Source: an uncultured Ignavibacteria bacterium (lineage in GTDB: Bacteria; Bacteroidota; Ignavibacteria; Ch128b). Taken from it: a DNA stretch of 64,000 nucleotides. Positions 11,754 to 28,850 of the stretch are shown here, in pieces. The position numbers and the translations under genes are program-made. The notes below the pieces were generated by a model. It was not told where the DNA came from. It saw nothing but the letters and a program-made list of their open reading frames with translations, and did not search any database. Within the stretch, counting starts at the first letter, position 1; every line of letters starts with the position of its first letter. The stretch is taken from the NCBI GenBank assembly GCA_937944105.1, contig CALDZP010000034.1, positions 38,262 through 102,261 of the forward strand. Direction: 5' to 3'.

Positions 11754-13532
11754 TTAAATGGTGAAATATTTTGCTTCTGGATGATGAATAATAATTGCTG
11801 AAGTACTCTGTTCAGGTACCATTTGAAAACCATCTGTCAGTGTAACTCCAATTCTCTCAGGTCTTAAAAGTTTAAATAGTTTTGTCTGATCTTCAAGGTT
11901 AGGGCAAGCAGGATAACCAAAAGAGTATCTTGATCCACGATAACCCTGTTGAAAAAGTTTTTTAATATCCTTTGCATCTGCATAATCAATTTTTAGTTCT
12001 TCACGGATTTTTTTGTGCCAGTATTCTGCAAGTGCTTCGGCGGTTTCTACTGAAAGTCCATGAAAGAATAAATATTCAGAATACTGATTATTTGAGTAAA
12101 GATATTTAGAATATTCAGTTGCTTCATTTCCAACTGTTACAACATGAAAAGCAACAACATCAAATTTTCCACTTTCCACGGGCAAAACAAAATCTGAAAT
12201 ACATAAATTCTTTTTATCAACTTGTCTTGGAAAAGAAAAACGCACAAATTCTTCTAATTGAACTTTGGATAAATCTAAATCCCAGATGTCATATATTTTT
12301 TCATTATCCAAATTTTCAGGTTTATAAATTATTAAATCATTTTTGTCAGATTGTGCTGGGAAATATCCATAAACGACTTTTGGTTTGAGTAAATTATTTT
12401 CTTTTACTGTTCTCTTTAGTTTTTCATAAATAGGTAAGATTTTTTCTTCCACAAGTTTATTGTATTCTTCATCAGATATTTTTCTTTTTCTGAATTGCCA
12501 TTGACCTCTGAAGAGAGCTACTTCATTAATATATTTAAAGACTTCATCAAGTGGAATATCTTCAACAATTTTTACACCCCAGAATGGAGGTTGAGGGACT
12601 TCATCAAGTATGGATACACTTGATTTTTGAAAAGCTTTTTCTTCATCAAAGAATGCAAGTTTTGCATCACTACCAACGAGTGTATCAAGTATATCATCAT
12701 CAGTAATATCACTCTCAAGTTTTTTATCCTGTTTTATAAGTTCTTCTAAGTTATGTGACTTAATTTTTTCCATGAATTTTAATCCATCGAAAGCATCTTC
12801 GGCATATTCAACATATCCCTTATAAATTTTTTTCAGATCTTGTTCAACATATCTTCTTGTAAGAGCTGCGCCACCTAAAACTACAGGAATATGGAGTCCT
12901 TGTTCATTTAAGACTTCGAGGTTTTCTTTCATTATTAATGTTGATTTTACAAGTAAACCACTCATGCCAATTGCATCGGCATTTTGTTTTTCAAATTCTT
13001 CGATCATTTTTTCAACCGGACATTTTATTCCAAGATTATAAACAGTATAACCATTATTTGTTAGAATTATATCAACTAAATTCTTCCCTATGTCATGCAC
13101 GTCTCCTTTAACAGTTGCAAGAACAATTTTACCTTTAGATTCTCCCTGTTTCTTTTCCATAAATTTTTCAAGATAACCAACAGCTGATTTCATGACTTCG
13201 GCACTTTGCAAAACAAATGGAAGTTGCATCTGTCCGCTTCCGAAAAGTTCACCTACAATTTTCATCCCTTCCAGAAGTATTTTATTAATAATGTCTAAAG
13301 CTGAATATTTTTTAAGAGCTTCATCGAGATCTTCCTTTAATCCAATTTTTTCTCCATCTATAATTCTATTTTTTAATCTCTCCTCAACTGAAAGATCCTT
13401 TTTATTTGATTTCTCTTTGTCCTCTTCAGGTTTAGATGAATAATAGGCAATTAATTCCTGTAATGGATCGTAGACAACCTTTCTTTCTTTTTCTGCCATA
13501 ATTCTTGTGATTTTTGTTAATAATTTAAACAA
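11754..13532 (-). CDS. metH: Methionine synthase C-terminal half (B12-binding cap, B12-binding and AdoMet activation domains)
   Basis: 'GDVHDIGKN' (DxHxxG), 'MSGLL' (SxL), 'VVLGGAAL' (GG) cobalamin-binding motifs; activation-domain 'GYPACP' motif; 592 aa. Confidence 0.8.
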   Translation of the reverse strand: MFKLLTKITRIMAEKERKVVYDPLQELIAYYSSKPEEDKEKSNKKDLSVEERLKNRIIDGEKIGLKEDLDEALKKYSALDIINKILLEGMKIVGELFGSGQMQLPFVLQSAEVMKSAVGYLEKFMEKKQGESKGKIVLATVKGDVHDIGKNLVDIILTNNGYTVYNLGIKCPVEKMIEEFEKQNADAIGMSGLLVKSTLIMKENLEVLNEQGLHIPVVLGGAALTRRYVEQDLKKIYKGYVEYAEDAFDGLKFMEKIKSHNLEELIKQDKKLESDITDDDILDTLVGSDAKLAFFDEEKAFQKSSVSILDEVPQPPFWGVKIVEDIPLDEVFKYINEVALFRGQWQFRKRKISDEEYNKLVEEKILPIYEKLKRTVKENNLLKPKVVYGYFPAQSDKNDLIIYKPENLDNEKIYDIWDLDLSKVQLEEFVRFSFPRQVDKKNLCISDFVLPVESGKFDVVAFHVVTVGNEATEYSKYLYSNNQYSEYLFFHGLSVETAEALAEYWHKKIREELKIDYADAKDIKKLFQQGYRGSRYSFGYPACPNLEDQTKLFKLLRPERIGVTLTDGFQMVPEQSTSAIIIHHPEAKYFTI

Positions 13533-13866
13533 GGTTTGTGTGAAAATAAATTCATTTGAGAATTTATTTTTTTAATTTTCAGGATAAAAAAAGTTTTAAA
13601 TTGTTTCATCCATGAATAATAGTTTTTAACATTAAAACTGAAATCCTTTATTTCTTGATTTCATATTTTTTAATTCATTTCACTTTGAATTATATCGTTT
13701 ATAATTAAAAAATTTCAAAATTAAATACCCGAGAAATGTTTCTTATTGTTGTTAAGGATTAAAACCCAGGAGTCTTAAAATTTTGTTGTGTATTTTGAAA
13801 TAAGTTATAAAAAAAATTTTGATTACATGGTTTATTTAATTCTGAAAAATATTTAACTTATCTATT

Positions 13867-16089
13867 ATGAAACGAATTTTATTTTGGATTACAATATTTA
13901 TGCTTAAACTTTATTCTCAGAATAAAGATACTTCTATAATTTTTTCTGAAGTAATGTTTTATAATTCATCTTCTATTCCGAATGGAGAATTTATTGAATT
14001 ATTTAATACGAGCTACACTGATACAATTGATATTTTGGGTTGGAAAATTAAATATTATACTTCGGTGGCTGATCAAATAGTAGATGCTGGGCAGGGAACA
14101 AAAATTCTTCCTCGTCAATTTGCTGTAATTTTTGAGAATGATTATTCTGGTGGTTATTCAGTTCCATCCTCAGCGTTGATATTAAAAATAAGTGATAATG
14201 CTTTTGGTACATCGGGAATGGCAAATGGAACAGATAGAGATATTCATCTCATCAATGCAACTAATGATACAATATGGTCATATACATATTCAGCGAACAA
14301 TTCATCGGGATATTCTGATGAAAAAATAATTTTAATAGGAGACAATTCGCCTTCAAATTGGGCAAATTCTTTAATATTAAATGGAACTCCTGGCGGGCGT
14401 AATAGTGTCTCCCCGAAAGAATATGATATTGGGTTGGTTAGATTTAAAACAACTCCCTTATTTCCTGTATTGAATGACACAGTTCAAGTTGGTGTTTGGG
14501 TAAAAAATTTCGGGATTCGAGATGCTTCGAATTTCATTGTTACATTTAAATATGATTTTAATAATGATGGGATTTATGATTTATTTGTCACTTCAAATAC
14601 AATTAATTATCTAAAATCTGGAGATTCATTATTTATAATATCTGATTCATTGATTAAGGGTTTGAGCTCTGAGGTAAAGATTTTATCTGAATTAAACTTT
14701 ACTCTTGATGAAAATCATGTTAATGATACAATTTCATTGTTGATTAAACCTGGAGTTTCACCGGGTACGGTTTTAATTAGTGAAGTAATGTATGATCCAA
14801 GAACAGGTGAACCTGAATGGGTAGAAATCTACAATAAATCTGACTCAAAAGTAAATCTTAAAGGATGGAAAATTTCTGATGTTCTTGCAACTCCTACAAT
14901 TACAACGATCACAAATAATGATTTTTACATTGAACCAAAATCACTCCTTGTTTTAGCTTCGAATTTATCAATTAGAAATTTTTATGATACCATTTCATCT
15001 CCTTTATTGGTAGTTCCAATACCCACATTAAACAATGATAAAGATGGTGTTGTAATTTATGATGAAAGAGGGTTAATGATTGATTCACTTTTTTATTTTT
15101 CTCATTGGGGAATTAGTAAGCGTTCAATTGAAAGAATAAGTTATGATAGAGAAACAAACTTAAAAAGTAATTGGGCAGCTTCTGTCTCAGATAGTGGAGG
15201 AACACCCGGAAATTTTAATTCTGTGATGAATATTCAACCAGCAAATCCATCATCTATTGTAATTAATGAAATTATGTATGAACCGTTAACAGGATTTGCT
15301 GAATACATTGAAATTTATAATAACTCTCTAGATTCAATTAATCTGGCAGGATGGAAAATAGTCGAAGGTGGTGGTAAATCATTTTTGTTAAGCTCAAGAA
15401 CAAAATATCTTAAAGCAGGTGAATATTTTGTTATTTCTTCAGATTCATCAATTTTGTCTCTCTTTCCTTATCTTCATGAATCTTATTTTTCAAATAATTT
15501 AAAAATTTTTAATGCCCCAGATTTATCTTTATCTAATACTGGCGACATATTAGTTCTGCAAGATATTTTTGAAAATAATATTGATAGTGTAGCTTATCAA
15601 ACAAAATGGCATAATCCAGAAATCGATAATTCGAAAGGCAGATCACTCGAAAGGATAAATCCATCTCTTAATTCAAATGACAGCAGAAACTGGACAACTT
15701 CGGTAAATCCAGCAGGCGGAACCCCATTAATTCAAAATTCTGTTTATACTAAAAAAGTTTCTACCTCATCAAAAATTGAGATTTCTCCCAATCCGTTCTC
15801 ACCTGATAATGATGGCTTTGAAGATTTTACCATCATCTCGTATCAATTACCTATTGAGACATCCCAGATAAGGATCAGAATATTCGATAGTGTGGGAAGA
15901 CTCGTTAGAACATTAGCGGACAATGAGCCCTCTGCTTCTTCTGGTTCAATTATCTTTGATGGGCTTGATGATAATAAGCAACCTCTTAGAATTGGAATTT
16001 ACATTGTACTGCTTGAAGCTATAAATCAGCAAAATGGTGTAGTTGAGAAAATCAAACAACCTTTAGTAATTGCAAGAAAATTTAAATGA
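13867..16089 (+). CDS. Secreted lamin-tail-domain (LTD) x3 protein with FlgD-Ig/T9SS-like C-terminal domain
   Basis: Three LTD-like repeats ('SEVMYDP..EWVEIYN..GWKI'); C-terminal 'SPNPFSPDNDGFED...GIYIVLL'. Confidence 0.6.
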   Translation: MKRILFWITIFMLKLYSQNKDTSIIFSEVMFYNSSSIPNGEFIELFNTSYTDTIDILGWKIKYYTSVADQIVDAGQGTKILPRQFAVIFENDYSGGYSVPSSALILKISDNAFGTSGMANGTDRDIHLINATNDTIWSYTYSANNSSGYSDEKIILIGDNSPSNWANSLILNGTPGGRNSVSPKEYDIGLVRFKTTPLFPVLNDTVQVGVWVKNFGIRDASNFIVTFKYDFNNDGIYDLFVTSNTINYLKSGDSLFIISDSLIKGLSSEVKILSELNFTLDENHVNDTISLLIKPGVSPGTVLISEVMYDPRTGEPEWVEIYNKSDSKVNLKGWKISDVLATPTITTITNNDFYIEPKSLLVLASNLSIRNFYDTISSPLLVVPIPTLNNDKDGVVIYDERGLMIDSLFYFSHWGISKRSIERISYDRETNLKSNWAASVSDSGGTPGNFNSVMNIQPANPSSIVINEIMYEPLTGFAEYIEIYNNSLDSINLAGWKIVEGGGKSFLLSSRTKYLKAGEYFVISSDSSILSLFPYLHESYFSNNLKIFNAPDLSLSNTGDILVLQDIFENNIDSVAYQTKWHNPEIDNSKGRSLERINPSLNSNDSRNWTTSVNPAGGTPLIQNSVYTKKVSTSSKIEISPNPFSPDNDGFEDFTIISYQLPIETSQIRIRIFDSVGRLVRTLADNEPSASSGSIIFDGLDDNKQPLRIGIYIVLLEAINQQNGVVEKIKQPLVIARKFK

Positions 16090-16264
16090 ATGTAAAATCA
16101 TAACGATTGAGAAAGTTATAAAAAAATACGATTTTACAAAAAAAGGAGGCTTTAAATAGTAATGGAAGAAAAAATTAGATTAAATCCTAACAGGGAATTT
16201 AAAGTTAAGTTGGTGCGTTATATTATTTTAACAATCTTGTTTGTAATTGCTGTAATTTTTTTGT

Positions 16265-17320
16265 TCAAGCTAATTTTTTCTTATACATTATAACATTTAT
16301 CATTTTATCACAGAAGTCGATTACTGTTTTTACTTCTATATCATTAATATTATTTGTTGGAGAACACAAGTAAAATTTATTTTTCCATAGAGGAGCCCAC
16401 TCATATTTAAGTTCCCTATTCCCAAGTGCAATTAAAATTGTATCAGTTAGTCCAGCAATATGCATAACTCCGGTATCATTTGAGATAAATAAATCACAAT
16501 AGTTAATTAGAGCTAATAATTTTTTAAAAGGCAAATTCTTTGCGTGATAGAAAGGAATTTTTAAGTCATTTAGCGATAAAACTAAATGTTTAGTAACATT
16601 TTCATCGTTCGGTCCAGAAGTTATGATAAAACTCGAATTATATTTTTTATACAAATACTTAATAACACTTAAAAAATTTTCCGTTTTCCAGATGTTTTGA
16701 AGCTTACCCGCCCCTGGATGAACTCCAATTAAAATATTTTGAGATTTATGATTTTCGTTGAAAATATTTTGAGTTTCATTTTTTTCATTTTCATTTAATC
16801 TTGGAAAAGATTCGAAAATTTCTTTGATGGTAATTTCACACCCAATTTGTTTTATCACCTCAAGATTTCTAAAGGTTTGATGAACCTTATTAGTTTTCCA
16901 ATAAAAATTTCTTTTAATATTTAACAAAAAGCTGAATTTATTTTTAAGATTATCGATACTTTCAACACCAACTCGATATTTAATATTTGAAAGATAGCTA
17001 ATTAATATTGAGGTAGTAGAAAATCGAATTGTTGATGGAATGATTGCAAGATCAAATTTAATTTTTCTTAATGTTTTGATAAGTTTAATTTGTTTTTTTA
17101 GTGAAGATCTGTCAAATGAAATTACATTATCAATGTAAGGATTTATTTCTTTGAATGGAATTTCATAGTTTGTTTTTGACGCAAGAAGAGTAATTTGAGA
17201 ACCCGGAAAATGTTTCTTTAAAGCATAAAACATAGGGATTGAAACAATTAAATCACCAATTTGATTATGTTTACGTATAATAAGTATTTTGTTAATATTT
17301 TTAAACTGAAGACTATTCAT
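16265..17320 (-). CDS. Glycosyltransferase family 9 (heptosyltransferase-like)
   Basis: 'ILIIRKHNQIGDLIVSIPMFYALKKHFP' N-terminal GT9 motif; C-terminal 'NDTGVMHIA'. Confidence 0.7.
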   Translation of the reverse strand: MNSLQFKNINKILIIRKHNQIGDLIVSIPMFYALKKHFPGSQITLLASKTNYEIPFKEINPYIDNVISFDRSSLKKQIKLIKTLRKIKFDLAIIPSTIRFSTTSILISYLSNIKYRVGVESIDNLKNKFSFLLNIKRNFYWKTNKVHQTFRNLEVIKQIGCEITIKEIFESFPRLNENEKNETQNIFNENHKSQNILIGVHPGAGKLQNIWKTENFLSVIKYLYKKYNSSFIITSGPNDENVTKHLVLSLNDLKIPFYHAKNLPFKKLLALINYCDLFISNDTGVMHIAGLTDTILIALGNRELKYEWAPLWKNKFYLCSPTNNINDIEVKTVIDFCDKMINVIMYKKKLA

Positions 17321-17330
17321 AAATTCTTAA

Positions 17331-18335
17331 TTGAATGCTTTTAAATATTTAAGTAATTTTGAAATAGTTTTTCGCAAAATAATGAACTTTTCATATAATG
17401 GGTTTAATATTTTAATGTCCAGATTTAATACAATAATTCATTTAATTTTAATTTTTAGCCTTACTTTTTGTTTTACTTCCTGTATAAAAGAAGTTTCTGA
17501 ACCAATTGAACCTACAGTTCTTAAGAAACTTAAGTTAATTCCGGAAAATCCTGTTAATATCATTTATCTTAATTTTAAAAACTTAAAGAAAACAAAATCA
17601 TGGCAAAATTTTTTTACTGAAGATTTAAATGTTCAAACTTCAGAAAGCAAAAATATCTTTGATTCTCTTGGGATCGATTTTAATAATGATATCGATGAAA
17701 TCATAATAGCGAGTCAATGGAACGACATTAATACTTATATAATTACTCTTAACAATACAAAGAATCTAAAACATAATAAATTAAAAGAGAGCGACTTTAA
17801 ATTCTACTTTATAGATGAAAAAATTCTTTTTATTACAAATGATGAGAAAAAACTTGAAAAAGTAATTCACAATGACTTTGAATCCAGTTTTATAAAAAAC
17901 CCTCTATTTAGAAGAATAATTAATTCAATTCAATATAAAGAACAATTCTGGTTTGTTACGAAAAATAATTCATTTTTTATTCACCTTTTAGAAAATGGGA
18001 ATTATGATGCTCAGAAACTTGAAAATTTATTTCGAACAATTCAATTCATCAATTTCTCATTGAGAATCGATAAAGATTTAAGCTTAAATTCTCACTGGGA
18101 ATGCATTGATACTTATAGAGCTAATCTTTTGAGGGGTGTTTTGGATGGACTGATTTCTGTTCTCGCATTGACAGAACCCAATGACCCATTTGCTCGAGAA
18201 TTAGCAAAAGCAAATATTTTTATTGAAAATAAAGCTGTAAATATTAGTTTAAAATTATCAAAAAATGAATTTGAAAAACTTCGTCAATCAACAATCGCAA
18301 ACAAATTGAAGAGAATAACCGGATATGAGCAATGA
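17331..18335 (+). CDS. Hypothetical lipoprotein (likely start at 17415)
   Basis: Internal Met followed by hydrophobic helix and 'FTSC' lipobox. Confidence 0.4.
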   Translation: MNAFKYLSNFEIVFRKIMNFSYNGFNILMSRFNTIIHLILIFSLTFCFTSCIKEVSEPIEPTVLKKLKLIPENPVNIIYLNFKNLKKTKSWQNFFTEDLNVQTSESKNIFDSLGIDFNNDIDEIIIASQWNDINTYIITLNNTKNLKHNKLKESDFKFYFIDEKILFITNDEKKLEKVIHNDFESSFIKNPLFRRIINSIQYKEQFWFVTKNNSFFIHLLENGNYDAQKLENLFRTIQFINFSLRIDKDLSLNSHWECIDTYRANLLRGVLDGLISVLALTEPNDPFARELAKANIFIENKAVNISLKLSKNEFEKLRQSTIANKLKRITGYEQ

Positions 18336-19269
18336 AGAAAAAAAATTAAAGCTTCAGGATTTGATAGATGAAATGCCACTTCCTCAGGTCGAATCTGAAA
18401 GAATCGAGACAGTTGGCATTATTGGTGGTGGCATTATGGGCTCAGGTATAGCACAAGCTGCCTCACAAGCAGGATTGGATGTAATAATTGTTGAAAAAGA
18501 TGAAATCAGCGCAGAAAAGAGTAAAAAAAGATTGAGCGAAAGTATGGATCAAGAGATTAGGCGCTGGGGTATGACCATCAGTGAGAAAAAGGCAATTATT
18601 CAGAGAATACGATGGACAACAGATATCAATGAAGTTAGCGAATGTGATATAATAATTGAAGCTGTAGATGAAGATCTAAAACTTAAACAAGAAATATTTA
18701 GAAAATTAGATGAAATTTGTCCTCCTGAAACAATTTTTGTTTCGAACACCTCCACACTCAGTCTTTCAAAAATTGCTGACGGAACATCACGAGGACATAA
18801 AACAATTGGAATGCATTTCCTGAATCCTGTCCCCAAAGTACCTGTTGTTGAAATTGTTCGTGGAATTGAAACTTCGGATGAAACTGCTAATATTGCTAAG
18901 TCATTTGCGAAGAAATTGGGTAAAACCCCTGTTGAAGTCTTTGAATATCCTGGTTTTATTACAACTCGTGTAATCGTGCCTTTTCTTAATGAAGCCATGC
19001 ATATTTTAATGGAAGGATTAGCAACAGCAGAAGGTATAGATACAGCAACCAAGCTTGGTTATAATCTTCCCATTGGTCCCCTTGAACTTGCAGATACGAT
19101 GGGACTCGATGAAATTCTGGCTTGGATGGAATCTCTCTGGCATGAATTGGGCGAACCTCGCTATCGTCCATGTCCATTACTTAGAAAATATGTGCGTGAA
19201 GGAAAGCTTGGTAAAAAATCAGGAGAAGGTTTCTTTAAATATGATGAACATGGTAGAAAAATAACTTAA
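18325..19269 (+). CDS. hbd: 3-hydroxyacyl-CoA / 3-hydroxybutyryl-CoA dehydrogenase
   Basis: 'VGIIGGGIMGSGIAQ' Rossmann motif; 3HCDH N- and C-domain conservation; about 30-aa N-terminal extension. Confidence 0.8.
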   Translation: MSNEEKKLKLQDLIDEMPLPQVESERIETVGIIGGGIMGSGIAQAASQAGLDVIIVEKDEISAEKSKKRLSESMDQEIRRWGMTISEKKAIIQRIRWTTDINEVSECDIIIEAVDEDLKLKQEIFRKLDEICPPETIFVSNTSTLSLSKIADGTSRGHKTIGMHFLNPVPKVPVVEIVRGIETSDETANIAKSFAKKLGKTPVEVFEYPGFITTRVIVPFLNEAMHILMEGLATAEGIDTATKLGYNLPIGPLELADTMGLDEILAWMESLWHELGEPRYRPCPLLRKYVREGKLGKKSGEGFFKYDEHGRKIT

Positions 19270-19286
19270 AATCAGAGGAAAAATTC

Positions 19287-21129: not shown

Positions 21130-21663
21130 TTATGGTCTCGTTTGGATATAACCTCTATATGGAGTTGAAGGTTGTATAGTAATAAAAGCCTTTGGATCAA
21201 TTTTCTCAACAATTTCTAAAAACTCTTTTTGCCTTTTTCGAGCAATTATTGAGACAATTATTGCTTGACCACCTGTTCCACCTTCTCCTGGAAGTATTGT
21301 AACTCCGAATTTCTTTTTTCTCAACTCGTCAGCAATCTCATCAGCAAAATGTAACGATACAATATAAATCTGGATAAATCCCAATCCGAATTTTTGTTCA
21401 AGTGTTATTCCGATGATATTACCCAAACCAAATCCTGTTGAGTAACCAAGTATATTCCATAAATTATCTATGTGAAGCATTATATGTCTTATTGCGAAAA
21501 TCCAAACTGTAACTTCAATAAAACCTAAAATCCCTGCGTAATATTTTCTGCCCTGTACTACCATAAGTGTTCGAATTGTGCTTATGGTAACATCTACAAT
21601 CCTCATGCACATAATCATTATTGCGCTAAGAAAAATTTCCATTTTAAAACCATTTTTTTTCAA
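21130..21663 (-). CDS. UPF0316/DUF2179 small membrane protein
   Basis: 177 aa; 3 TM plus C-terminal DUF2179-like 'GVTILPGEGGTGGQ...IVSII'. Confidence 0.5.
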   Translation of the reverse strand: MKKNGFKMEIFLSAIMIMCMRIVDVTISTIRTLMVVQGRKYYAGILGFIEVTVWIFAIRHIMLHIDNLWNILGYSTGFGLGNIIGITLEQKFGLGFIQIYIVSLHFADEIADELRKKKFGVTILPGEGGTGGQAIIVSIIARKRQKEFLEIVEKIDPKAFITIQPSTPYRGYIQTRP

Positions 21664-21804
21664 AAATAACCATTCGAGGATAAATGATTCTTATAAAACA
21701 GTCCATCTAATCTTGTAAGCAAAATACTACAAAAATTTTAATTAAAATCAATTGACATTAATAAAATTCATTTTTATGTTTATTATCATTTATTTTGTAA
21801 AAAT

Positions 21805-22290
21805 ATGGGTGAAAAGACTAGAGTATTTTCAGTAAAATTCTTTTTTAAGACAATGAATCTTATTTATTTTAGTTTTGTCGGTAGCGGCATTATCTTATGC
21901 CTCATCTCATTTTATTTATGGGGATTTGATATTAATATTAGAACAGAACTGTCTTTTGAAAAGCAACTTATTCTTGGGATCTTCGTAATTGTTTCGACAT
22001 TTTTATCTCAATTTATATACAGAAGAGCTATCAGAAGAATTAACGATAATGATCAAATAATTATAAAATTACAAAGTTATCAGGCTGCAGTGATTTACCG
22101 AATGAGTATTTTAGAATTCACTCTTGTTATTACTGTGTTATTTTTCATTTTTACAAAAATATGGTCATTTTTATTTATAAGTTTTGCTTTACTATTTTTA
22201 TTGTTTTTATGTAAACCAACCAAATATAGTTTATTTAAATTATTACCGTTATCAGAAGAAGAGAAAATATTGATAATTAATAATTCGTAA
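21805..22290 (+). CDS. Hypothetical membrane protein
   Basis: ORF with four hydrophobic segments; no recognisable motifs. Confidence 0.3.
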   Translation: MGEKTRVFSVKFFFKTMNLIYFSFVGSGIILCLISFYLWGFDINIRTELSFEKQLILGIFVIVSTFLSQFIYRRAIRRINDNDQIIIKLQSYQAAVIYRMSILEFTLVITVLFFIFTKIWSFLFISFALLFLLFLCKPTKYSLFKLLPLSEEEKILIINNS

Positions 22291-22815
22291 TTAAAAAATT
22301 TTCACGCTGACTTTTGGTATAGATTTAATTAAACTTTAGAATCTTATAATTAGATTAATTAATTTACTTATTGGGCTTTAATGACTTAACATATTAAATC
22401 TTAAATTTCACATTGAAGTGAATTGATGAATAATATAAAATTAAAATTGTTTCGATAATTTGATATAAAATTTTAATTCTTTTTTTCTTGATTAAGACTA
22501 AAACTCTATTTATGAAATATAATTTTGGAAATTTTACAGATGGATCAAGATTTTAAACTTGCAAAACTCTAAGCATATTTCAATGAATTGATGATTATTT
22601 TTTTAATTTTTTGGGGTTACATGTTTTATTCATTATACTGGAATAGAGGTACTTAAATAAATATTTTTTTAAGGTAGAAAATTCACAGGACACTTCTTAA
22701 ATTATAGAAATTCAAAACAAAATTTCAGAAACTATATAGATTATCTTTATAATTTATTAAAACAGATTTCATTATAGAACTTGGAGTAGATTATTCATCT
22801 TTCTATTTTATTATT

Positions 22816-23658
22816 ATGAAACAAACTATTTATTTCATTAATAACGATTTTGTAGAAAAAGATAAAGCAGTAATTCCAGTTAATGATATTGGTTTGCTTA
22901 GAGCTTATGCAGTATTCGATTACTTAAAAACTTACTTCGGCAAGCCTTTTCATCTAATTGACCATATTGAACGATTATTCAAATCCGCTGAGTTTATTGG
23001 TCTAAAAATACCAAAGAATAAATTGGAAATTAAAGATATTGTGATTGAATTGATTCGCATTAATAAATTTCCTGAATCGAGTGTGAGGATCATAGTTACA
23101 GGGGGGGACAGTCCTGATGGCAAGAAAAAAGGAGAGCCGAGATTAATCATTACGTGCGAACCAAGAAATGAATTAGATATCAAATTTTACGAAAAAGGAA
23201 TAAAAATAAAATCTGTTCACGATTATCGAGAAACACCACTTGCTAAAACCATAAATTACACACTGGCAATTAAATATCTAAATGATTTTATTCCAAAAGG
23301 ATTTTTCGAGGTTCTTTACATACATAATTCCAAAATAACTGAATGTACATCAAGTAATATCTTTTTCATCAAAGGGAAAAAATTAATAACCCCTAAAGAT
23401 GAAGTGTTGCCAGGAATAACAAGAAAAATAGTTTTAAACCTGGCTTCGAAATATTTTGATGTTGATGAAAGAGATATTTATTACCATGAAATTTATGACT
23501 TTGATGAATCATTTATTACTTCTACAGATAAAGAAGTGATGCCTGTAATTTCAATTGATGAGCATCTTTTTAATAAAGGTATAATTGGAGATAAAACAAA
23601 GCTCGTAATTAAATTATTTCGAGATTACATTGAATCTAAAGTATGGATGGATTTCTAA
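22816..23658 (+). CDS. Class IV aminotransferase (BCAT / aminodeoxychorismate lyase-like)
   Basis: 'LRAYAVFDYLKTY', 'ECTSSNIFFIKGKKLITP', 'LPGITRKIVL' fold-type IV motifs. Confidence 0.65.
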   Translation: MKQTIYFINNDFVEKDKAVIPVNDIGLLRAYAVFDYLKTYFGKPFHLIDHIERLFKSAEFIGLKIPKNKLEIKDIVIELIRINKFPESSVRIIVTGGDSPDGKKKGEPRLIITCEPRNELDIKFYEKGIKIKSVHDYRETPLAKTINYTLAIKYLNDFIPKGFFEVLYIHNSKITECTSSNIFFIKGKKLITPKDEVLPGITRKIVLNLASKYFDVDERDIYYHEIYDFDESFITSTDKEVMPVISIDEHLFNKGIIGDKTKLVIKLFRDYIESKVWMDF

Positions 23659-23705
23659 TGTTATGAATGAACTTTTACTTTATGAGTTTATATTATTTCA
23701 TAGTT

Positions 23706-24578
23706 TTATACTTCAATTCCTAAACCTTCTCTAACTAAAATTCCTATTCCAAAAGTAATTGCAGTTACAACAAGATTTAATACTACCATTTCAAGAAATC
23801 TATGTTTAAATGATAAATCCTTGGCAACAGATATATAGTAATTGAAAATGAAGATTATGAAAATTGCAATACCTATAGTGATTGGTAAAGCAATAAAAGG
23901 ATTGGATAATAAAAGGTAAGGAAGAACAAGCAAAATAACAGTAATGATATAAGCCCCACCTGTATAAAAAGCAGATTTAAGATAGTTTTTGTTTTCCCCC
24001 TCGGCTTTTTCTGAAAGGTAATTTGATGCTGCCATTGAAAAAGACGCCGCAATTCCTGTTATTAATCCTGCTAATGCGATTATTTGCGTTTTTTGTATTG
24101 CAAAAGTCAAGCCCGCAAGTGCTCCAGTTAATTCAATTAATGCATCATTTAAACCAAGTACAATTGAACCTGCATATTTTAGTTTTTCCTCATCTAACAT
24201 ATCAATCAATGCATTTTCATGTGAATTCTCTTCTGCAAGAATTTTTTCTGCTTCTGGTAGTTTATCAACAATAGAAGAATAAAATCTTTCTGCTTTCTGC
24301 TCACCTTTTTCCATTAGTTTTATACTGAATGTTATACCAAATAAGCGAGCCATAAAGTTGTAGAAATAAACTTTGAATCTATTTGGCTTGACCTCTGTAT
24401 TTGTTAATTTTTTCCAGTAATTATAATGTGCTAATTCATCGTGTGCTATTTTACTTAAGACTTCAGAATTATTTTTATCTTTTACTATTCTCGAAAGATA
24501 GCTATAGACATAAAACTCAGTTATTTCATTTTTCTGAACGAATAATAATTGCTCTTTTAATTCTGAATCAATTGTCAT
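23706..24578 (-). CDS. VIT1/CCC1-family Fe/Mn transporter with N-terminal ferritin-like domain
   Basis: N-terminal 'AHDELAHYNYW' ferritin-like part; C-terminal 5 TM VIT1 region. Confidence 0.65.
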   Translation of the reverse strand: MTIDSELKEQLLFVQKNEITEFYVYSYLSRIVKDKNNSEVLSKIAHDELAHYNYWKKLTNTEVKPNRFKVYFYNFMARLFGITFSIKLMEKGEQKAERFYSSIVDKLPEAEKILAEENSHENALIDMLDEEKLKYAGSIVLGLNDALIELTGALAGLTFAIQKTQIIALAGLITGIAASFSMAASNYLSEKAEGENKNYLKSAFYTGGAYIITVILLVLPYLLLSNPFIALPITIGIAIFIIFIFNYYISVAKDLSFKHRFLEMVVLNLVVTAITFGIGILVREGLGIEV

Positions 24579-24605
24579 TGTTATTCTCCTATATATTAAT
24601 GAATT

Positions 24606-25682
24606 TTAAGAGTTCTGAAAGCTTTGTTTTAATTTTTCACTTCTATCAGCAAGTTTTAATTGTTCAATTAATTCATCAAGATTACCATCAAGAATTTCTT
24701 GAAGGTTATATAGGGTTAATCCAATTCTATGATCTGTTACTCTATTTTGAGGGAAGTTGTAAGTTCTGATTTTATCGCTTCTATCGCCTTTCCTTACCAT
24801 CGATCTTCTTTGCTCAATTAATTCTTTGTTTTGTTCTTCCATTTGTAAATCATAAAGTCGAGCTCTCAAAACTTTCATTGCTTTTATTCTATTTTGAATT
24901 TGTGACCTTTCATCTTGACATTGCACGACAATACCAGTTGGAATATGTGTGATTCGTACAGCAGTTTCTACTTTGTTCACATTTTGACCACCTGCACCGC
25001 CACTTCTATAAATATCGATTCTTAAATCGTTGGGATTTATTTCTACCTCAATTTCTTCAGCTTCAGGAAGAACAACAACAGATGCTGCTGAAGTATGTAT
25101 TCTTCCACTCGATTCAGTTTTTGGTACACGTTGGACACGATGAACTCCACTTTCATATTTCATATTTCCATATGCACCGTTTCCTTGAATCATAAAAATT
25201 ACTTCTTTCAATCCACCTATGCCTGTGTCGTTTAAATCAATCAGATCAATTTTCCAACCTTTGTTTTCAGCATATCTTGAATACATTCTAAACAAATCAG
25301 CTGCAAAAAGGGCAGCTTCTTCACCACCAGTACCAGCACGAATTTCTACAATACAATTTTTTTGATCATTTGGATCTTTTGGAAGAAGCAACATCTTTAA
25401 TTCTTCTTCCAGCTTTTCTAGTTTAGGTTCAAGTTCTTCAAGCTCAATTTTAGCAAGTTCAGCTAATTCAGGGTCAAGTTTGGAGTAAATAATTTCTTTG
25501 TTGCCTTCAATATTTTTTTTCACTTCTTTGTATTTTTTATATGTATTAACTATTTCTTCCAGTTCGCTTCTTTCTTTTGTAAGCTTGATTAACTTTTGTT
25601 GATCTGAGACCACTTCAGGATTCATTAATTGCTGATTTATTTCTTCAAATCTTTTAACGATGTTTTCTAAGTTTTCGAACAT
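24606..25682 (-). CDS. prfA: Peptide chain release factor 1
   Basis: '[24 protein letters not shown]' (GGQ); 'PKT' tripeptide (PxT, RF1-specific); '[14 protein letters not shown]'. Confidence 0.9.
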
Positions 25683-25752
25683 AATTTTCTCTCTCCAGTT
25701 TCAAAAATAGAAAATATTGCTGGATTAAATAAATTCAAAAATAAGGAGTGTT

Positions 25753-26754
25753 TTAATTTTTTAGGTGTTTTATAATTCTTGCCAATGAAGGTGTTTTTGA
25801 AAAACTGATTAAAGTAAAATAAAATCTTATTTTAAGCTTATCATAAATGAAATAAAGAATTATCAGAATGATTAGTACTGGTATCAAGAAAAGAATAAAA
25901 AACATAATGGTATTTTGAATTTTAATACTACTTCCCCTTATAGGAAAAATGAATGATTGGACAAGATAAATTTTATAATTATCGTCAAACCATCTAAGAG
26001 GAGGTAACTCACTAAGTCTGAATGTTTCAATGTTTTTGATGAAATAAATATTATTGAAAAGAGAGTAGTAGGATATATAATACTCCTCAATAGGTGTTTC
26101 ATATTTTGTCTTATTTTCATGAATGACAGTAATCAAATTAGTCTTACCTGAGTGAATTAAATCATATAATTCATCTGATGATAGATAAATTGTATCGATT
26201 TTAAATGAGATATTAAATGTGGCATCTGAAATTATCCATTTCCCTCTTTTTTCATCCCATATTTCTATTGTAGAGTGTCTATCAAATGAATCAAAAATAG
26301 ATCTTGCAATAGTTATATATCTTACTTTGAAATCATATAAATGTAAAATATATCCATATAATCTTGCAATTTCCCCACAAAGTAATGGTTTGTTTGATTT
26401 TAAGTGATAGTATAATTTGTCTGGATATCTTGAGAACAAGTACTCTCCATTTTTTTTCAGTCCTTGATTCAAAAGTTTTTCCCTTATGAAAGCAGCAGTC
26501 TCAATTGTATGTTCTGGAACCTGAGAAATCCCAAAATCTTTATTTATCATCGATTTAAAATATTCATTATACTTCTTGGGAAAATTAAATTCAGTATTAG
26601 AATCTATTAAAGTAAATTCATCTTGTTTGATTATGCTATAACGACTTAAGGTTATTATATTGTATTCTTTTGAAACAATTGAGAATAAAATTTCAAAAAG
26701 AATCAGGAAGAAAAGTATGTTTATTAGCAAAAGTTTTCTTTTTATTTCAATCAT
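25753..26754 (-). CDS. Transglutaminase-like cysteine protease domain membrane protein
   Basis: N-terminal TM; 'CGEIARLYGYIL...HSTIEIWD...WIISDAT' Cys-His-Asp arrangement. Confidence 0.55.
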   Translation of the reverse strand: MIEIKRKLLLINILFFLILFEILFSIVSKEYNIITLSRYSIIKQDEFTLIDSNTEFNFPKKYNEYFKSMINKDFGISQVPEHTIETAAFIREKLLNQGLKKNGEYLFSRYPDKLYYHLKSNKPLLCGEIARLYGYILHLYDFKVRYITIARSIFDSFDRHSTIEIWDEKRGKWIISDATFNISFKIDTIYLSSDELYDLIHSGKTNLITVIHENKTKYETPIEEYYISYYSLFNNIYFIKNIETFRLSELPPLRWFDDNYKIYLVQSFIFPIRGSSIKIQNTIMFFILFLIPVLIILIILYFIYDKLKIRFYFTLISFSKTPSLARIIKHLKN

Positions 26755-27032
26755 TTTTTAGCTTAGATACTTTTCTAGCATATAAGTTTAATTGTTTAAT
26801 AATATTTGCTAGATTCATACCAAAACAATATATGATTTAAAGCGATTAATTAAGTGATTTAATGAAATAATTTTAATGAATATGAAAAATATTCATGAAC
26901 TATGAATTTTTTTTGTAAGAGCTTTCAAAAGATCTTTTATGTTTAAATAAAATTTTATTATGTTATTTTTAGATGTTTAAAAATATTCGTATGAATTAAT
27001 TCAGGTTTAAATAAAATAATCAGTAGAAAAAA

Positions 27033-28850
27033 ATGAAAACATTTAATCAACTGCTGAAGGAAAAGGTATTAATATTTGACGGAGCTATGGGTACAAATCT
27101 TCAAGCTCAAAATCTTAGCTTTAATGATTTTGGTGGAAAGGAATATGAAGGTTGCAATGAATATTTAATCATTTCAAAACCTGACGCAGTAAAGAAAGTA
27201 CATCTGGATTTTCTTGAGGCTGGAGCTGATATAATTGAAACGAACACATTTGGTTCAAATGAAGTTGTGTTATCAGAATATAATTTACAAAATTTAGCAT
27301 ATGAGATCAGCTACAAGGCAGCAAAACTCGCAAAAGAACTGGCTTTAGATTTTTCATCGAATGAAAAACCAAGATTTGTTGCTGGTTCGATTGGTCCAGG
27401 GACAAAATTACCTTCATTAGGACACATATCATTTAAAGAACTCGAAAAATCATATTATCCTCAAATATCTGGGCTAGTTGATGGTGGCGCTGATATATTA
27501 TGTATCGAAACATGTCAGGATATGCTTCAAATTAAAGCTGCTCTCTCTGCTGCTATGAAAGTTTTTGATGAGAAAAAAACTAAACTACCAATTATTGTTT
27601 CAATTACAATTGAAACAACAGGAACAATGTTAATGGGAACTGATATTTCTGCAGCTTTAACAACTTTAGAACCTTATGAAATAATTGATGTTATAGGTAT
27701 GAACTGTGCCACTGGTCCAAAAGAGATGAGCGAAAATGTTCGTTACCTTTGTCAAAATTCGCCTAAACCTATTTTTGTGATGCCCAATGCAGGAATTCCA
27801 GAAAATGTTAATGGTAAAGCTTGCTATCATTTGAATCCTGATGAACTTGTTCACTGGTTGAGTCATTTTGTGAAAGATTTAGGTGTAAATATTGTTGGTG
27901 GCTGTTGTGGGACCACAAAAGAACATATAAAAAAATTAGTCGAAAATTTGTCAAATCTTAAACCAGCAGAAAGAAATTGGAGTTACCAACCTTCTGTATC
28001 CAGTAATTTTATCAGTCAATCTCTAAGAGTTGATCCAGCGCCTGTTTTAGTTGGTGAAAGATGTAATGCAAACGGTTCTAAACAATTTCGTGATTATTTA
28101 TTGAAAGATGATTATGAGGGAATGCTTCAAGTTGCAAAAGATCAAATTAAAGAGGGCGCACATATGATTGATGTTTGTGTTGCTTATGTTGGACGAGATG
28201 AAAAAAAAGATATGATTGAATTTGTTAAAAGATTAAATACTCAAGTTGTACTTCCTATTATGATCGATTCCACAGAATATGAAGTAATCGAAGCTGCTCT
28301 GGAAAATTATGCTGGTAGATGTGTAATTAATTCAATTAATTTGGAAGATGGAGAAGAAAGAACTTCAAAGGTTTTACCACTTGCGAAAAAGTTTGGTGCA
28401 GCGGTTATATGCTTAACAATTGATGAAGAAGGAATGGCAAAAACTGCTGAAAAAAAACTGGCTATTGCCAAAAGAATAAGAGATATAGCAGTAAAAAGAT
28501 TCGGTCTAAGGGAATCTGATTTAATTTTTGATCCATTAACATTCACTCTTGGCAGTGGAGATGAGGAATTTCGTAAAAGTGCAATTGAAACCCTTGAAGC
28601 AATAAAATTGATTAAAAAAGAAATTCCAAATTCCTTTACGATTCTTGGAATTAGTAATGTATCATTTGGTTTGAATCCTAAAGCAAGGCATGCTCTTAAT
28701 TCAGTCTTTCTATATTATGCAGTGCAGGCTGGACTTGATCTGGCAATAGTTCATGCGAGTAAAATCATGCCTCTTAACAAAATTGATGATCGTGGTAAAA
28801 AACTTTGCGAGGAATTAATTTTTGATAAGAGAATTTTTGAATATTCTTAG
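27033..28850 (+). CDS. metH: Methionine synthase N-terminal half (homocysteine-binding plus pterin/methyl-THF-binding domains)
   Basis: 'LIFDGAMGT' Hcy S-methyltransferase start, 'GGCCG'; pterin-binding TIM barrel 'VGERCNANGSKQF...MIDVC'; 605 aa; ends where the B12-cap would begin. Confidence 0.8.
   Translation: MKTFNQLLKEKVLIFDGAMGTNLQAQNLSFNDFGGKEYEGCNEYLIISKPDAVKKVHLDFLEAGADIIETNTFGSNEVVLSEYNLQNLAYEISYKAAKLAKELALDFSSNEKPRFVAGSIGPGTKLPSLGHISFKELEKSYYPQISGLVDGGADILCIETCQDMLQIKAALSAAMKVFDEKKTKLPIIVSITIETTGTMLMGTDISAALTTLEPYEIIDVIGMNCATGPKEMSENVRYLCQNSPKPIFVMPNAGIPENVNGKACYHLNPDELVHWLSHFVKDLGVNIVGGCCGTTKEHIKKLVENLSNLKPAERNWSYQPSVSSNFISQSLRVDPAPVLVGERCNANGSKQFRDYLLKDDYEGMLQVAKDQIKEGAHMIDVCVAYVGRDEKKDMIEFVKRLNTQVVLPIMIDSTEYEVIEAALENYAGRCVINSINLEDGEERTSKVLPLAKKFGAAVICLTIDEEGMAKTAEKKLAIAKRIRDIAVKRFGLRESDLIFDPLTFTLGSGDEEFRKSAIETLEAIKLIKKEIPNSFTILGISNVSFGLNPKARHALNSVFLYYAVQAGLDLAIVHASKIMPLNKIDDRGKKLCEELIFDKRIFEYS

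What the first reader, a model, noticed from the sequence alone, without database searches (positions are those of the whole stretch)
11754..28850. Cobalamin-dependent methionine synthase encoded as two separate halves 13.5 kb apart on opposite strands
27033-28850 (+) encodes only the homocysteine-binding and pterin-binding barrels (605 aa). 11754-13532 (-) encodes only the B12-cap, B12-binding (DxHxxG/SxL/GG) and AdoMet-activation ('GYPACP') modules (592 aa). The sum (1197 aa) matches a full-length MetH (about 1227 aa in E. coli). The break point falls exactly at the Pterin/B12-cap linker. Known non-canonical arrangements usually detach only the activation domain, so a substrate-half/cofactor-half split on opposite strands is unusual. 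The C-terminal half is also tightly coupled, by a 2-nt spacer, to a downstream GH13 amylase-family gene, which is an odd operon partner.
Basis: partly seen in the sequence, partly recalled or inferred. Interest (0 to 1): 0.7.

Follow-up and report, generated by a model that had tools for sequence, protein, structure and literature searches.

The report
Naturally two-piece B12 methionine synthase
This Ignavibacteria-like genome encodes its vitamin-B12-dependent methionine synthase as two separate, well-conserved proteins from unlinked genes, a cut point I did not find described in the papers I could search, and it suggests the enzyme's B12-carrying half can work without being covalently tied to the substrate-binding half.

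Summary
ORF 27033-28850 (+, 605 aa) holds only the homocysteine and folate barrels of MetH. ORF 11754-13499 (-, 581 aa; the 592-aa TTG form is an ORF-caller extension) holds only the cap, B12-binding and AdoMet-activation modules. Together they tile full-length MetH with no gap or loss. All catalytic motifs checked are intact, and both halves give dN/dS of about 0.05.

It is neither an assembly artefact nor a fresh break. The homologue lists hold about 118 N-half clusters and about 100 C-half clusters, mostly unnamed metagenome proteins; those that carry a name are Ignavibacteria, Kapabacteria and Bacteroidota, and one lies on a contig labelled CLD3. One sub-clade has the two genes adjacent on one strand. 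The window's clade has them dispersed, and the divergent arrangement about 13.5 kb apart is kept in relatives.

The cut lies about 20 residues upstream of the flexible Fol-Cap linker. The closest fused relatives have a 9-residue insertion there, which AlphaFold2 predicts as a beta-hairpin. The tail of the N-half and the head of the C-half match its two strands. I infer that this split hairpin, plus the invariant YDPL helix on the C-half, anchors the halves non-covalently.

Published natural MetH splits fall at other places. I class this as a new variant of a known kind, of moderate interest.

The parts
27033..28850 (+). metH N-half gene (605 aa): Hcy barrel plus folate (pterin) barrel
   Evidence: Pfam S-methyl_trans and Pterin_bind. 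TIGR02082 positions 2-611. Aligns to 8g3h residues 43-631. Zn motifs NCATGP and GGCCGT present. dN/dS 0.051.
27069..27947 (+). Homocysteine-binding barrel (res 13-305), with Cys225 and Cys291/292
28053..28754 (+). Folate/pterin-binding barrel (res 341-574)
28833..28847 (+). N-half C-terminal tail I-F-E-Y-S. It corresponds to the conserved x-aromatic-Glu motif, the inferred first strand of a split beta-hairpin.
   Evidence: About 100 of the 112 split N-halves where the motif could be located carry [KRVI][FYW]E here. The motif matches strand K266-E268 of the predicted hairpin in the fused relative P0183.
11754..13499 (-). metH C-half gene (581 aa from the ATG at 13499; the ORF caller extends it to a TTG at 13532): cap, B12-binding and AdoMet-activation domains
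   Evidence: Pfam. TIGR02082 positions 611-1182. Aligns to 8g3h residues 630-1177. Homologues are mostly 581 aa and start MAEKE.... dN/dS 0.051.
13434..13499 (-). C-half head (res 1-22): K7-V8-V9-Y10, the inferred second hairpin strand, plus the helix D11-S22 (YDPLQELIAYYSS). This is the inferred anchor that docks on the N-half.
   Evidence: Y10, D11, P12 and L13 are invariant, and K7, E15, L16, Y19 and Y20 are at least 90% conserved, in 63 split C-halves. Helix pLDDT is about 62 in the C-half modelled alone and about 85 when the Fol domain is present. The helix aligns to the last Fol-domain helix of Thermus MetH, which precedes Linker II.
13389..13433 (-). Retained flexible Fol-Cap linker (res 23-37, KPEEDKEKSNKK...)
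   Evidence: Aligns to the disordered Linker II, Lys649-Asp657, of T. thermophilus MetH. pLDDT below 50 for res 23-33.
13167..13388 (-). B12 cap (four-helix bundle). It includes QMQLPFVLQ, the residues that contact the Fol domain in the resting state.
12780..13133 (-). B12-binding Rossmann domain with DVHDIG, SGL and GGA
11757..12551 (-). AdoMet reactivation domain with RYSFGYPACP
10249..11751 (-). GH13-like gene, 2 nt downstream of the C-half stop. A conserved operon partner with no evident functional link.
9401..10213 (-). SpoU-family RNA methyltransferase gene, third member of the conserved C-half/GH13/SpoU block
13500..27032 (.). 13.5-kb segment between the divergently oriented halves (LTD/T9SS protein, GT9, 3HCDH, ackA, MarC, aminotransferase IV, VIT1, prfA, hypothetical). 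One inversion with breakpoints in 13500-13866 and 28851-28944 would place the two halves head-to-tail.
   Evidence: Gene order. The same order occurs in relatives L001/L003, L007, L008 and L010. The inversion is a geometric inference only.

Best explanation
The two ORFs are the two subunits of one functional cobalamin-dependent methionine synthase.

- The N-subunit (Hcy and Fol barrels) carries both methyl-transfer active sites.
- The C-subunit (Cap, Cob and Act) is a B12 carrier with its own AdoMet-dependent reactivation module.
- Catalysis would run as in fused MetH. The Cob domain picks up a methyl group at the Fol barrel, delivers it to homocysteine at the Hcy barrel, and returns to its own Act domain for repair.
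- The Cob-Fol and Cob-Hcy encounters would therefore be intermolecular.

Shown:
- complementarity of the two proteins
- intact motifs
- purifying selection on both halves
- conservation of the split across a large clade
- both adjacent and dispersed gene layouts

Inferred:
- The halves are held together by a structural element that the cut divides. In the nearest fused relatives a 9-residue insertion after the last-but-one Fol-domain helix is predicted to form a beta-hairpin. The cut lies in its turn.
- The N-half tail (x-aromatic-Glu) and the C-half head ((K/R)K-V-V) would then pair as two strands.
- The invariant YDPL helix, which in fused MetH is the last Fol-domain helix, would dock on the N-half.
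- The native flexible linker after that helix would still tether the Cap, Cob and Act domains.

Origin (inferred): an extended-linker fused gene gave two adjacent genes, as still seen in one sub-clade. These were later dispersed. In the window's lineage the layout is consistent with a single inversion.
For: Complementary tiling of MetH. The summed TIGR02082 score is 1368 bits against a cutoff of 1011, while each half alone is below the cutoff.

Motifs intact.

dN/dS is 0.051 for both halves, against 0.03 for prfA and 0.13-0.18 for the neighbouring LTD and GH13 genes.

Extent of the split: 118 of 120 top N-half hits are 602-639 aa stand-alone proteins, and about 100 of 120 top C-half hits are 556-583 aa stand-alone proteins, down to about 60% identity.

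Both halves sit on the same contig in independent assemblies, and their identities to the window fall in parallel (88/85, 87/83, 85/82%).

Adjacent collinear N and C genes, with spacers of 34 and 98 nt, occur in another sub-clade.

Junction comparison:
- canonical fused FDER-TSD-YDPL
- extended fused FDER-KFE-GEGENR-KVV-YDPL
- split N ...FDKR-IFE-YS* and split C MAEKER-KVV-YDPL

AlphaFold2:
- In the fused relative P0183 the insertion forms strands 266-268 and 275-278 at pLDDT 85-91, the YDPL helix has pLDDT about 85, and a disordered linker follows at 292-302.
- In the isolated C-half the same helix has pLDDT about 62, its head about 47, and the linker below 50.

The head helix is invariant among split C-halves.

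The Cap-Fol resting-state contact residues reported for T. filiformis MetH (Q717 and F720; P611) are conserved.

A cobalamin riboswitch followed by a TonB-dependent receptor lies about 10 kb from the C-half, so corrinoid uptake is encoded nearby.
Against: - There is no experimental evidence that these two proteins associate or turn over.
- No shared regulatory motif or riboswitch lies upstream of the two genes. They are in different transcription units, so stoichiometric co-expression is not evident.
- The anchor model rests on monomer AlphaFold2 confidence values and on conservation. No complex was modelled and no coordinates were inspected.
- The rest of the genome could not be searched for metE or a full-length metH.
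- From memory (Goulding, Postigo and Matthews 1997, not retrievable here): the separated E. coli halves, cut about 27 residues further downstream, transfer methyl groups efficiently to free cobalamin. Efficient turnover in trans was not the reported outcome.
- The NJ tree does not give a clean single origin.
Confidence: 0.8

Rival explanations
1. The two proteins do not form one enzyme. The N-half would work with free cobalamin or with another corrinoid protein. The C-half would be a general self-reactivating corrinoid carrier that serves other methyltransferases, as MtgC does in Rhodobacterales, where one corrinoid protein serves both methionine synthesis and glycine betaine demethylation.
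For: The genes are unlinked and show no common upstream motif. The C-half also gives sub-cutoff matches to MtaC/MtbC/MtgC-type corrinoid proteins. Sharing of a corrinoid subunit is documented in another split system. Stand-alone Cap+Cob+Act proteins recur in an unrelated lineage, Vampirovibrionales.
Against: Both halves score far higher to MetH than to any other family (750 and 618 bits, against 255 bits or less and 142 bits or less). They are adjacent genes in a sister sub-clade. Their tail and head are conserved and match the two sides of one structural element in fused relatives. The Act domain is specific to MetH reactivation. No MT1-type methyltransferase gene is in the window. This rival is not exclusive: the C-half could serve MetH and something else.
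Confidence: 0.1
2. The halves are redundant remnants. A full-length metH, or metE alone, elsewhere in the genome does the work, and these are decaying or neo-functionalised paralogous fragments.
For: Only 64 kb of the genome, plus flanks, could be inspected. Fused MetH genes exist in other Ignavibacteriota lineages at about 60% identity.
Against: dN/dS is about 0.05 on both halves, with every catalytic motif kept. Over a hundred 90%-identity clusters of each half, down to about 60% identity, imply long-term maintenance. The fused forms found come from other genomes. None was seen on contigs that carry split halves.
Confidence: 0.06
3. Origin rival: in the window's lineage the gene was broken directly by the inversion, with one breakpoint inside the linker codons. 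It was not first split in place and later separated.
For: The two halves are divergently oriented, so one inversion of about 13.5-15 kb rejoins them head-to-tail. The N-half keeps its upstream neighbours (hypothetical gene, prfA, VIT1) in a 79%-identical relative, and the C-half keeps its downstream neighbours (GH13, SpoU) down to 67% identity. That pattern is expected if each half carried along its own outer flank.
Against: A sub-clade with adjacent, collinear, separately framed N and C genes exists, which is the simpler intermediate. There are no inverted repeats or mobile elements at the junctions. More distant split genomes have other layouts, so the split predates this arrangement. Any opposite-strand layout is compatible with one inversion, so the geometry is weak evidence.
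Confidence: 0.2
4. Artefact: mis-assembly, a frameshift, or a sequencing error created an apparent split.
For: The window comes from a metagenome-assembled contig.
Against: The same split, with the same termini, appears in many independent assemblies from NCBI, ENA, JGI and Logan. The halves are 13.5 kb apart with 12 conserved genes in between. Each has its own start and stop codon.
Confidence: 0.01

Closest known systems
Canonical single-chain MetH (E. coli MetH; Thermus MetH structures 8G3H and 8SSC; human MTR)
   Same: All five modules are present in the same order, with the same catalytic and cofactor motifs. Identity to Thermus MetH is about 50-60% over the whole length. The 'N-half / C-half' modularity described for human MTR and the resting-state Cap-Fol contact residues are conserved.
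   Different: There are two polypeptides from unlinked genes, and each falls below the TIGR02082 cutoff. The chain break lies about 20 residues before the flexible Linker II, inside the C-terminal helical element of the Fol domain.
Engineered E. coli fragments MetH(2-649) and MetH(649-1227) (Matthews and Ludwig laboratories; PDB 1K7Y and 3BUL for the C-half)
   Same: The module content of the two pieces is the same: Hcy+Fol, and Cap+Cob+Act.
   Different: The laboratory cut is in the flexible linker. It aligns to C-half residue 28 or thereabouts, so the YDPL helix stays with the N-fragment. The natural cut leaves that helix, plus an extra beta-strand, on the C-half. I propose this is what lets the natural halves stay together. 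Statements about the biochemistry of the E. coli fragments are from memory, not from a paper read here.
Published natural two-part MetH splits (GapMind): Burkholderia phytofirmans BPHYT_RS02310 + RS02305 (Hcy | Fol-Cap-Cob-Act) and Bacteroides thetaiotaomicron BT0180 + BT0249 (Hcy-Fol-Cap-Cob | Act)
   Same: These are genuine, lineage-conserved gene fissions of MetH at module boundaries. The B. thetaiotaomicron pair is also unlinked.
   Different: The cut point differs. Here the split separates both substrate barrels from the whole cofactor and reactivation half, so every catalytic methyl transfer becomes intermolecular. I found no description of this split type in the searchable literature.
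Three-part methionine synthase of Phaeobacter and Ruegeria (MtgC/MtgD/MtgE with RamA-like reactivation)
   Same: The corrinoid carrier is a separate protein from the methyltransferase modules.
   Different: Those subunits are reported not to derive directly from classical MetH. They lack the Act domain and use a RamA-like activator. Here both halves are orthologous to classical MetH and the Act domain is retained.
Split MetE of archaea (PF1268/PF1269)
   Same: A methionine synthase fissioned into two conserved subunits, which are usually adjacent and occasionally unlinked.
   Different: It is an unrelated, cobalamin-independent enzyme family.

Membership tests
Cobalamin-dependent methionine synthase MetH (EC 2.1.1.13; TIGR02082) | Hcy-binding barrel (PF02574) with the Zn-ligand cysteines | tested here: met
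   PF02574 at 1.9e-84. NCATGP (Cys225) and GGCCGT (Cys291/292) are present.
Cobalamin-dependent methionine synthase MetH (EC 2.1.1.13; TIGR02082) | Pterin/folate-binding barrel (PF00809) | tested here: met
   PF00809 at 1.6e-48. GERCNANGS is present. Aligns to the Fol domains of 5VON and 8G3H.
Cobalamin-dependent methionine synthase MetH (EC 2.1.1.13; TIGR02082) | Cap plus Rossmann B12 domain with DxHxxG...SxL...GG | tested here: met
   PF02607 and PF02310. DVHDIG, SGL and GGA are present.
Cobalamin-dependent methionine synthase MetH (EC 2.1.1.13; TIGR02082) | AdoMet reactivation domain (PF02965) | tested here: met
   PF02965 at 2.3e-45. RYSFGYPACP is present. Aligns to the end of 8G3H and 3BUL.
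Cobalamin-dependent methionine synthase MetH (EC 2.1.1.13; TIGR02082) | All modules on one polypeptide that scores above the equivalog cutoff | tested here: not met
   The halves score 750.1 and 618.2 bits against a cutoff of 1010.85. They cover profile positions 2-611 and 611-1182.
Cobalamin-dependent methionine synthase MetH (EC 2.1.1.13; TIGR02082) | CH3-H4folate:homocysteine methyl transfer via enzyme-bound cobalamin | not testable with these tools
   This needs an enzyme assay or genetic complementation.
Natural split MetH as defined by GapMind (two proteins with non-overlapping alignments to one characterised MetH, conserved in related genomes) | Two non-overlapping pieces that together cover MetH | tested here: met
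Natural split MetH as defined by GapMind (two proteins with non-overlapping alignments to one characterised MetH, conserved in related genomes) | The same split is present in related genomes | tested here: met
Natural split MetH as defined by GapMind (two proteins with non-overlapping alignments to one characterised MetH, conserved in related genomes) | The cut point is one of the two published ones (after the Hcy barrel, or before the Act domain) | tested here: not met
   The cut is between Fol and Cap.
Methyl-H4folate:corrinoid/iron-sulfur protein methyltransferase system (MeTr/AcsE with a separate corrinoid protein) | A stand-alone pterin-binding methyltransferase scoring above the family cutoff, with no Hcy barrel | tested here: not met
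   NF005719 scores 179 bits against a cutoff of 259, and NF040758 scores 92.5 against 370. The protein carries a full Hcy barrel.
Methanogen-type or MtgC-type stand-alone corrinoid proteins | A protein of about 200-260 aa with cap and Rossmann domains only, scoring above the family cutoff | tested here: not met
   All such models score below their cutoffs (142 bits or less). The protein also carries the MetH Act domain.

The most novel reading that the evidence does not exclude
This would be a natural heterodimeric MetH whose chain break lies inside the C-terminal element of the Fol domain. The halves would be held together by a beta-hairpin split at its turn, plus a donated helix. If so, the covalent Fol-Cap connection is dispensable for the large domain movements of MetH. 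Hairpin insertion would have pre-adapted the enzyme for fission, possibly several times. The B12, cap and reactivation half would be a dissociable carrier that could in principle exchange between partners.
Probability: 0.35. Interest if true: 0.6.

Novelty: new variant of a known kind. Interest (0 to 1): 0.45.

Why it matters
MetH is a textbook case of an enzyme that must swing one cofactor domain between three active sites. How the linkers orchestrate this is still debated.

A natural, strongly conserved version in which the substrate platform and the cofactor half are separate proteins would help in three ways:
- It offers a ready-made system to ask whether the covalent tether matters.
- It could be used to trap inter-domain complexes for structural work.
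- It lets one study whether the B12 module can be shared between partners.

There is also a practical consequence. Each half scores below the curated metH cutoff, and the sources name them 'homocysteine S-methyltransferase family protein' and 'B12-binding domain-containing protein'. Tools that do not join split proteins may therefore score genomes of this clade as lacking methionine synthase or as not needing B12.

Tried and rejected
1. Recent IS-mediated or recombinase-mediated inversion. The repeat search shows no inverted repeats above the AT-rich background at the junctions, and I saw no transposase or recombinase among the neighbouring genes annotated. The split is also old.

2. Split intein or trans-splicing. 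Together the halves have no extra length relative to fused MetH: 605 + 581 aa, against 1150-1190 aa for fused relatives.

3. Junction duplication. tblastn suggested a 6-residue overlap of the N-tail and the C-head on fused relatives. Inspection showed that these are the two arms of an inserted linker, not a duplication.

4. Common riboswitch or regulatory motif upstream of both halves. None was found by Rfam at E up to 10 or by a shared k-mer search across relatives. The sigma-70 and terminator scan was no better than shuffles.

5. Synteny test of the inversion model in fused relatives. The fused loci (L014-L017, L030) share none of the window's flanking genes, so the test was uninformative.

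6. Single-origin test. A bootstrapped NJ tree of the C-part was not decisive. The window's clade of 76 split sequences has support 62, a second split clade of 22 has support 99, and fused lineages are interleaved at support 57-77. No ML software was available.

7. The 50%-representative search was dominated by fragments and gave little on architecture frequencies. It did reveal the Vampirovibrionales stand-alone C-half.

8. Literature searches for this split type or for MetH in Ignavibacteria found nothing specific.

Full report
**1. Observation**

The window is AT-rich (about 30% G+C). It carries Bacteroidota/Ignavibacteria-type genes such as T9SS C-terminal sorting domains and a Y_Y_Y hybrid kinase.

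ORF 27033-28850 (+) encodes 605 aa with Pfam S-methyl_trans (13-305) and Pterin_bind (341-574). ORF 11754-13532 (-) encodes B12-binding_2, B12-binding and Met_synt_B12.

- NCBIfam TIGR02082 (metH, 1182 positions) matches positions 2-611 with the first ORF (750 bits) and 611-1182 with the second (618 bits). Each is below the 1010.85-bit cutoff.
- Against full-length Thermus filiformis MetH (8g3h) the halves align to residues 43-631 and 630-1177.
- The Zn-ligand motifs, GERxNxxGS, DxHxxG/SxL/GG and RxxxGYPACP are all present.
- The C-half stop and the GH13 start are separated by 2 nt, TAA-AT-ATG.

One correction is needed. Nearly all homologues of the C-half start at the ATG at 13499 (581 aa, MAEKE...). 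The 592-aa TTG form is an ORF-caller extension.

**2. Not an artefact and not a private oddity**

- Of the 120 best hits to the N-half, 118 are stand-alone proteins of 602-639 aa, down to 63% identity.
- Of the 120 best hits to the C-half, about 100 are stand-alone proteins of 556-583 aa, down to about 60% identity.
Source names, where given, are Ignavibacteria, Ignavibacterium, Ignavibacteriales, Candidatus Kapabacteria and Bacteroidota. One contig is labelled phylum CLD3.

In GCA_017880035.1 (88% and 85% identical) the two genes lie on one 1.48-Mb contig, divergently oriented and about 13.5 kb apart, with the same genes in between. The same upstream synteny of the C-half holds in three further species-level genomes with at least 80% identity. 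The window's own two proteins occur together on 192-kb and 248-kb contigs of two assemblies.

dN/dS against the 88% relative is 0.051 for both halves. This compares with prfA at 0.032, GH13 at 0.18 and LTD at 0.13. dS is near saturation, so the values are approximate.

**3. Layouts in the wider clade**

- The C-half/GH13/SpoU block is kept down to 67% identity (L012).
- The hypothetical/prfA/VIT1 block upstream of the N-half is kept at 79% identity.
- More distant split genomes have other contexts, and no partner half lies within the 6-10 kb of flank examined. One N-half lies next to ahcY on the CLD3 contig, one C-half stands alone on a 3.6-Mb contig, and P0200 is a third such case.
- In a well-supported sub-clade (C-halves of 562-566 aa) the N and C genes are adjacent on one strand. 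They are separated by 34 or 98 nt, in different frames, with stops in all frames.

Fused full-length MetH (1150-1190 aa, about 60% identical to both halves) exists in other Ignavibacteriota and Bacteroidota genomes. A stand-alone Cap+Cob+Act protein of 560 aa (38% identity) is also conserved in Vampirovibrionales, again with no N-half within 8 kb. The same kind of cut has therefore probably arisen more than once.

**4. Anatomy of the cut**

Three junction types are seen:

| Type | Description | Junction sequence |
|---|---|---|
| A | canonical fused | ...LIFDER-TSD-YDPLxELxxYY... (3 residues between the two helices) |
| B | fused with a 9-residue insertion | ...FDER-KFE-GEGENR-K(V/C)V-(Y/F)DPL... 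(L014, P0183, P0193 and others, named Ignavibacteriae/Ignavibacteriales) |
| S | split N-half | ends ...FD(E/K)R-x-[FYW]-E plus 2-6 residues |
| S | split C-half | starts M plus 3-8 residues, then (K/R)K(V/L)(V/I)-YDPL |

The window reads ...FDKR-IFE-YS* and MAEKER-KVV-YDPL. The tail and the head of the split proteins are thus the two arms of the type-B insertion. About 100 of the 112 N-tails where the motif could be located keep the aromatic-Glu motif. In an alignment of 63 split C-halves, Y10, D11, P12 and L13 are invariant, and K7, E15, L16, Y19 and Y20 are at least 90% conserved.

**5. Position relative to solved structures**

The 8SSC construct is a 35-residue N-terminal truncation, so chain index plus 35 gives the author numbering (His761 is index 726). 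The disordered Fol-Cap Linker II (Lys649-Asp657) aligns to C-half residues 24-31 (PEEDKEKS). The classical E. coli fragment boundary at 649 falls in the same stretch (3bul alignment).

The natural cut is about 20 residues upstream of this. The C-half therefore carries the helix that precedes Linker II in fused MetH. [quoted passage not shown]

AlphaFold2 on the type-B relative P0183 (Fol domain plus C-half, 841 aa) predicts the following:
- The insertion forms a beta-hairpin, with strands K266-E268 and K275-Y278 at pLDDT 85-91.
- The YDPL helix (280-293) has pLDDT about 85.
- The next 11 residues are disordered.

AlphaFold2 on the window's C-half alone predicts the same helix (12-22) at only about 62, the head at about 47, and residues 23-33 below 50.

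These are confidence values from monomer models. No coordinates or complexes could be inspected.

**6. Mechanism**

Shown: the two proteins are the complementary, intact and selected halves of MetH.

Inferred: they form a non-covalent enzyme. I propose the following:
- The N-tail strand and the C-head strand pair with each other, and the YDPL helix docks on the Fol domain of the N-half.
- The native flexible linker (C-half residues 23-37) then still tethers Cap, Cob and Act to the substrate platform.
- The catalytic cycle runs as in fused MetH.

Two points support an interface in trans. The Cap-Fol contacts of the T. filiformis resting state (Q717 and F720 with P611) are conserved (QMQLPFVLQ and KIMPLN). 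[quoted passage not shown]

A cobalamin riboswitch at window 1-142 (-) precedes a TonB-dependent receptor and a DUF5074 gene just outside the window. This fits a corrinoid-scavenging organism that uses a B12-dependent synthase.

**7. Origin**

The simplest path has three steps:
- A canonical fused gene (type A) gained the hairpin insertion (type B).
- It was then cut in the hairpin turn, giving adjacent genes.
- The genes were later dispersed.

In the window one inversion, with breakpoints in 13500-13866 and 28851-28944, would restore head-to-tail adjacency. Any opposite-strand layout allows this, however, and no repeats mark the junctions.

A bootstrapped NJ tree of the C-part does not resolve the number of fissions or whether type B could be a re-fusion:
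- The window's clade holds 76 split sequences, with support 62.
- A second split clade holds 22 sequences, with support 99.
- Fused lineages of types A and B are interleaved between them, at support 57-77.

**8. Comparison with what is known**

Published natural MetH splits are:
- Hcy | rest (Burkholderia and others)
- rest | Act (Bacteroides thetaiotaomicron, unlinked genes)
- the three-part Phaeobacter/Ruegeria system with a RamA-like activator

I found no description of an Hcy+Fol | Cap+Cob+Act natural split, nor of MetH in Ignavibacteria, in the searchable literature. The closest analogue is the laboratory pair E. coli MetH(2-649) and MetH(649-1227), which is cut about 27 residues further downstream.

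GapMind's generic joining of non-overlapping pieces would probably recognise this pair, so the concept is not new. The cut point, the unlinked layout and the proposed anchor are new.

**9. Neighbouring GH13 gene**

The GH13-like gene is a distant alpha-amylase-family member: Pfam 5e-15, and best PDB hit 4GKL at 3e-14 over 65 residues. It is conserved directly downstream of the C-half, together with a SpoU methyltransferase, throughout the window's clade. I see no functional link and treat it as operon hitch-hiking. This remains unexplained.

**10. Verdict**

- Novelty: new variant of a known kind.
- Interest is moderate at 0.45. It would be higher if the two-chain enzyme and the split-hairpin anchor are confirmed experimentally.

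Noticed in passing
window 1-142 (-), continuing left of the window; L038 11454-14516: A cobalamin riboswitch (Rfam RF00174, 79 bits, cut by the window edge) precedes a 670-aa TonB-dependent receptor and a DUF5074 protein just outside the window. This looks like a B12-regulated corrinoid uptake locus, about 10 kb from the C-half.
   Followed up: partly
window 49539-51047 (+): A dnaA gene (DnaA_N, Bac_DnaA and Bac_DnaA_C domains). The window probably lies next to the replication origin, and cumulative GC skew rises across most of the window.
   Followed up: no
window 40163-47503 (+): A carotenoid cluster: two amine-oxidase-type desaturases, phytoene synthase, lycopene cyclase, an acyltransferase, a GT2 glycosyltransferase and a Caroten_synth protein. 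This would suggest a glycosylated or acylated carotenoid in a non-phototroph.
   Followed up: no
window 10249-11751 (-) and 9401-10213 (-): A divergent GH13-like gene sits 2 nt after the C-half stop, followed by a SpoU RNA methyltransferase. The three-gene block is conserved down to 67% identity of the C-half. The reason for the linkage is unknown.
   Followed up: partly
window 13500-13532 (-): The ORF caller's TTG start adds 11 residues (LFKLLTKITRI). Four cluster members of 90% or higher identity are also called at 592 aa. More distant homologues are 581 aa and start at the ATG at 13499.
   Followed up: yes
L014 1-3615; proteins P0183, P0193, P0199, P0201, P0202, P0207, P0208, P0220, P0237: A group of fused MetH proteins has a 9-residue insertion (KFE-GEGENR-KVV) between the last two Fol-domain helices. 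AlphaFold2 predicts it as a beta-hairpin. It could be either the precursor of the split or a re-fusion product.
   Followed up: partly
L042 8001-9683 (protein P0294; MCE2931235.1): Vampirovibrionales carry a conserved stand-alone Cap+Cob+Act protein of 560 aa (38% identity) without the YDPL motif, and no N-half lies within 8 kb. This looks like an independent instance of the same kind of split.
   Followed up: partly
protein P0191 (789 aa, JGI): A C-half-type sequence whose precomputed Pfam hits also include PF12867 and PF08020. This may be a different fusion partner, or a gene-call artefact.
   Followed up: no
L032 8531-11818: On a contig labelled phylum CLD3 the stand-alone N-half lies directly downstream of S-adenosylhomocysteine hydrolase (ahcY). 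That is a methyl-cycle context which the window lacks.
   Followed up: no
window 58954-62532 (+), 34038-35534 (+) and 25753-26754 (-): Large ORFs of 1192, 498 and 333 aa have no Pfam match. The 333-aa ORF is the conserved divergent neighbour of the N-half. Its counterpart in a 79% relative gives a weak Transglut_core hit.
   Followed up: no
window 13867-16089 (+): A 740-aa protein with three lamin-tail domains and a CHU_C T9SS sorting domain is the divergent neighbour of the C-half. It is conserved in relatives with at least 80% identity.
   Followed up: no
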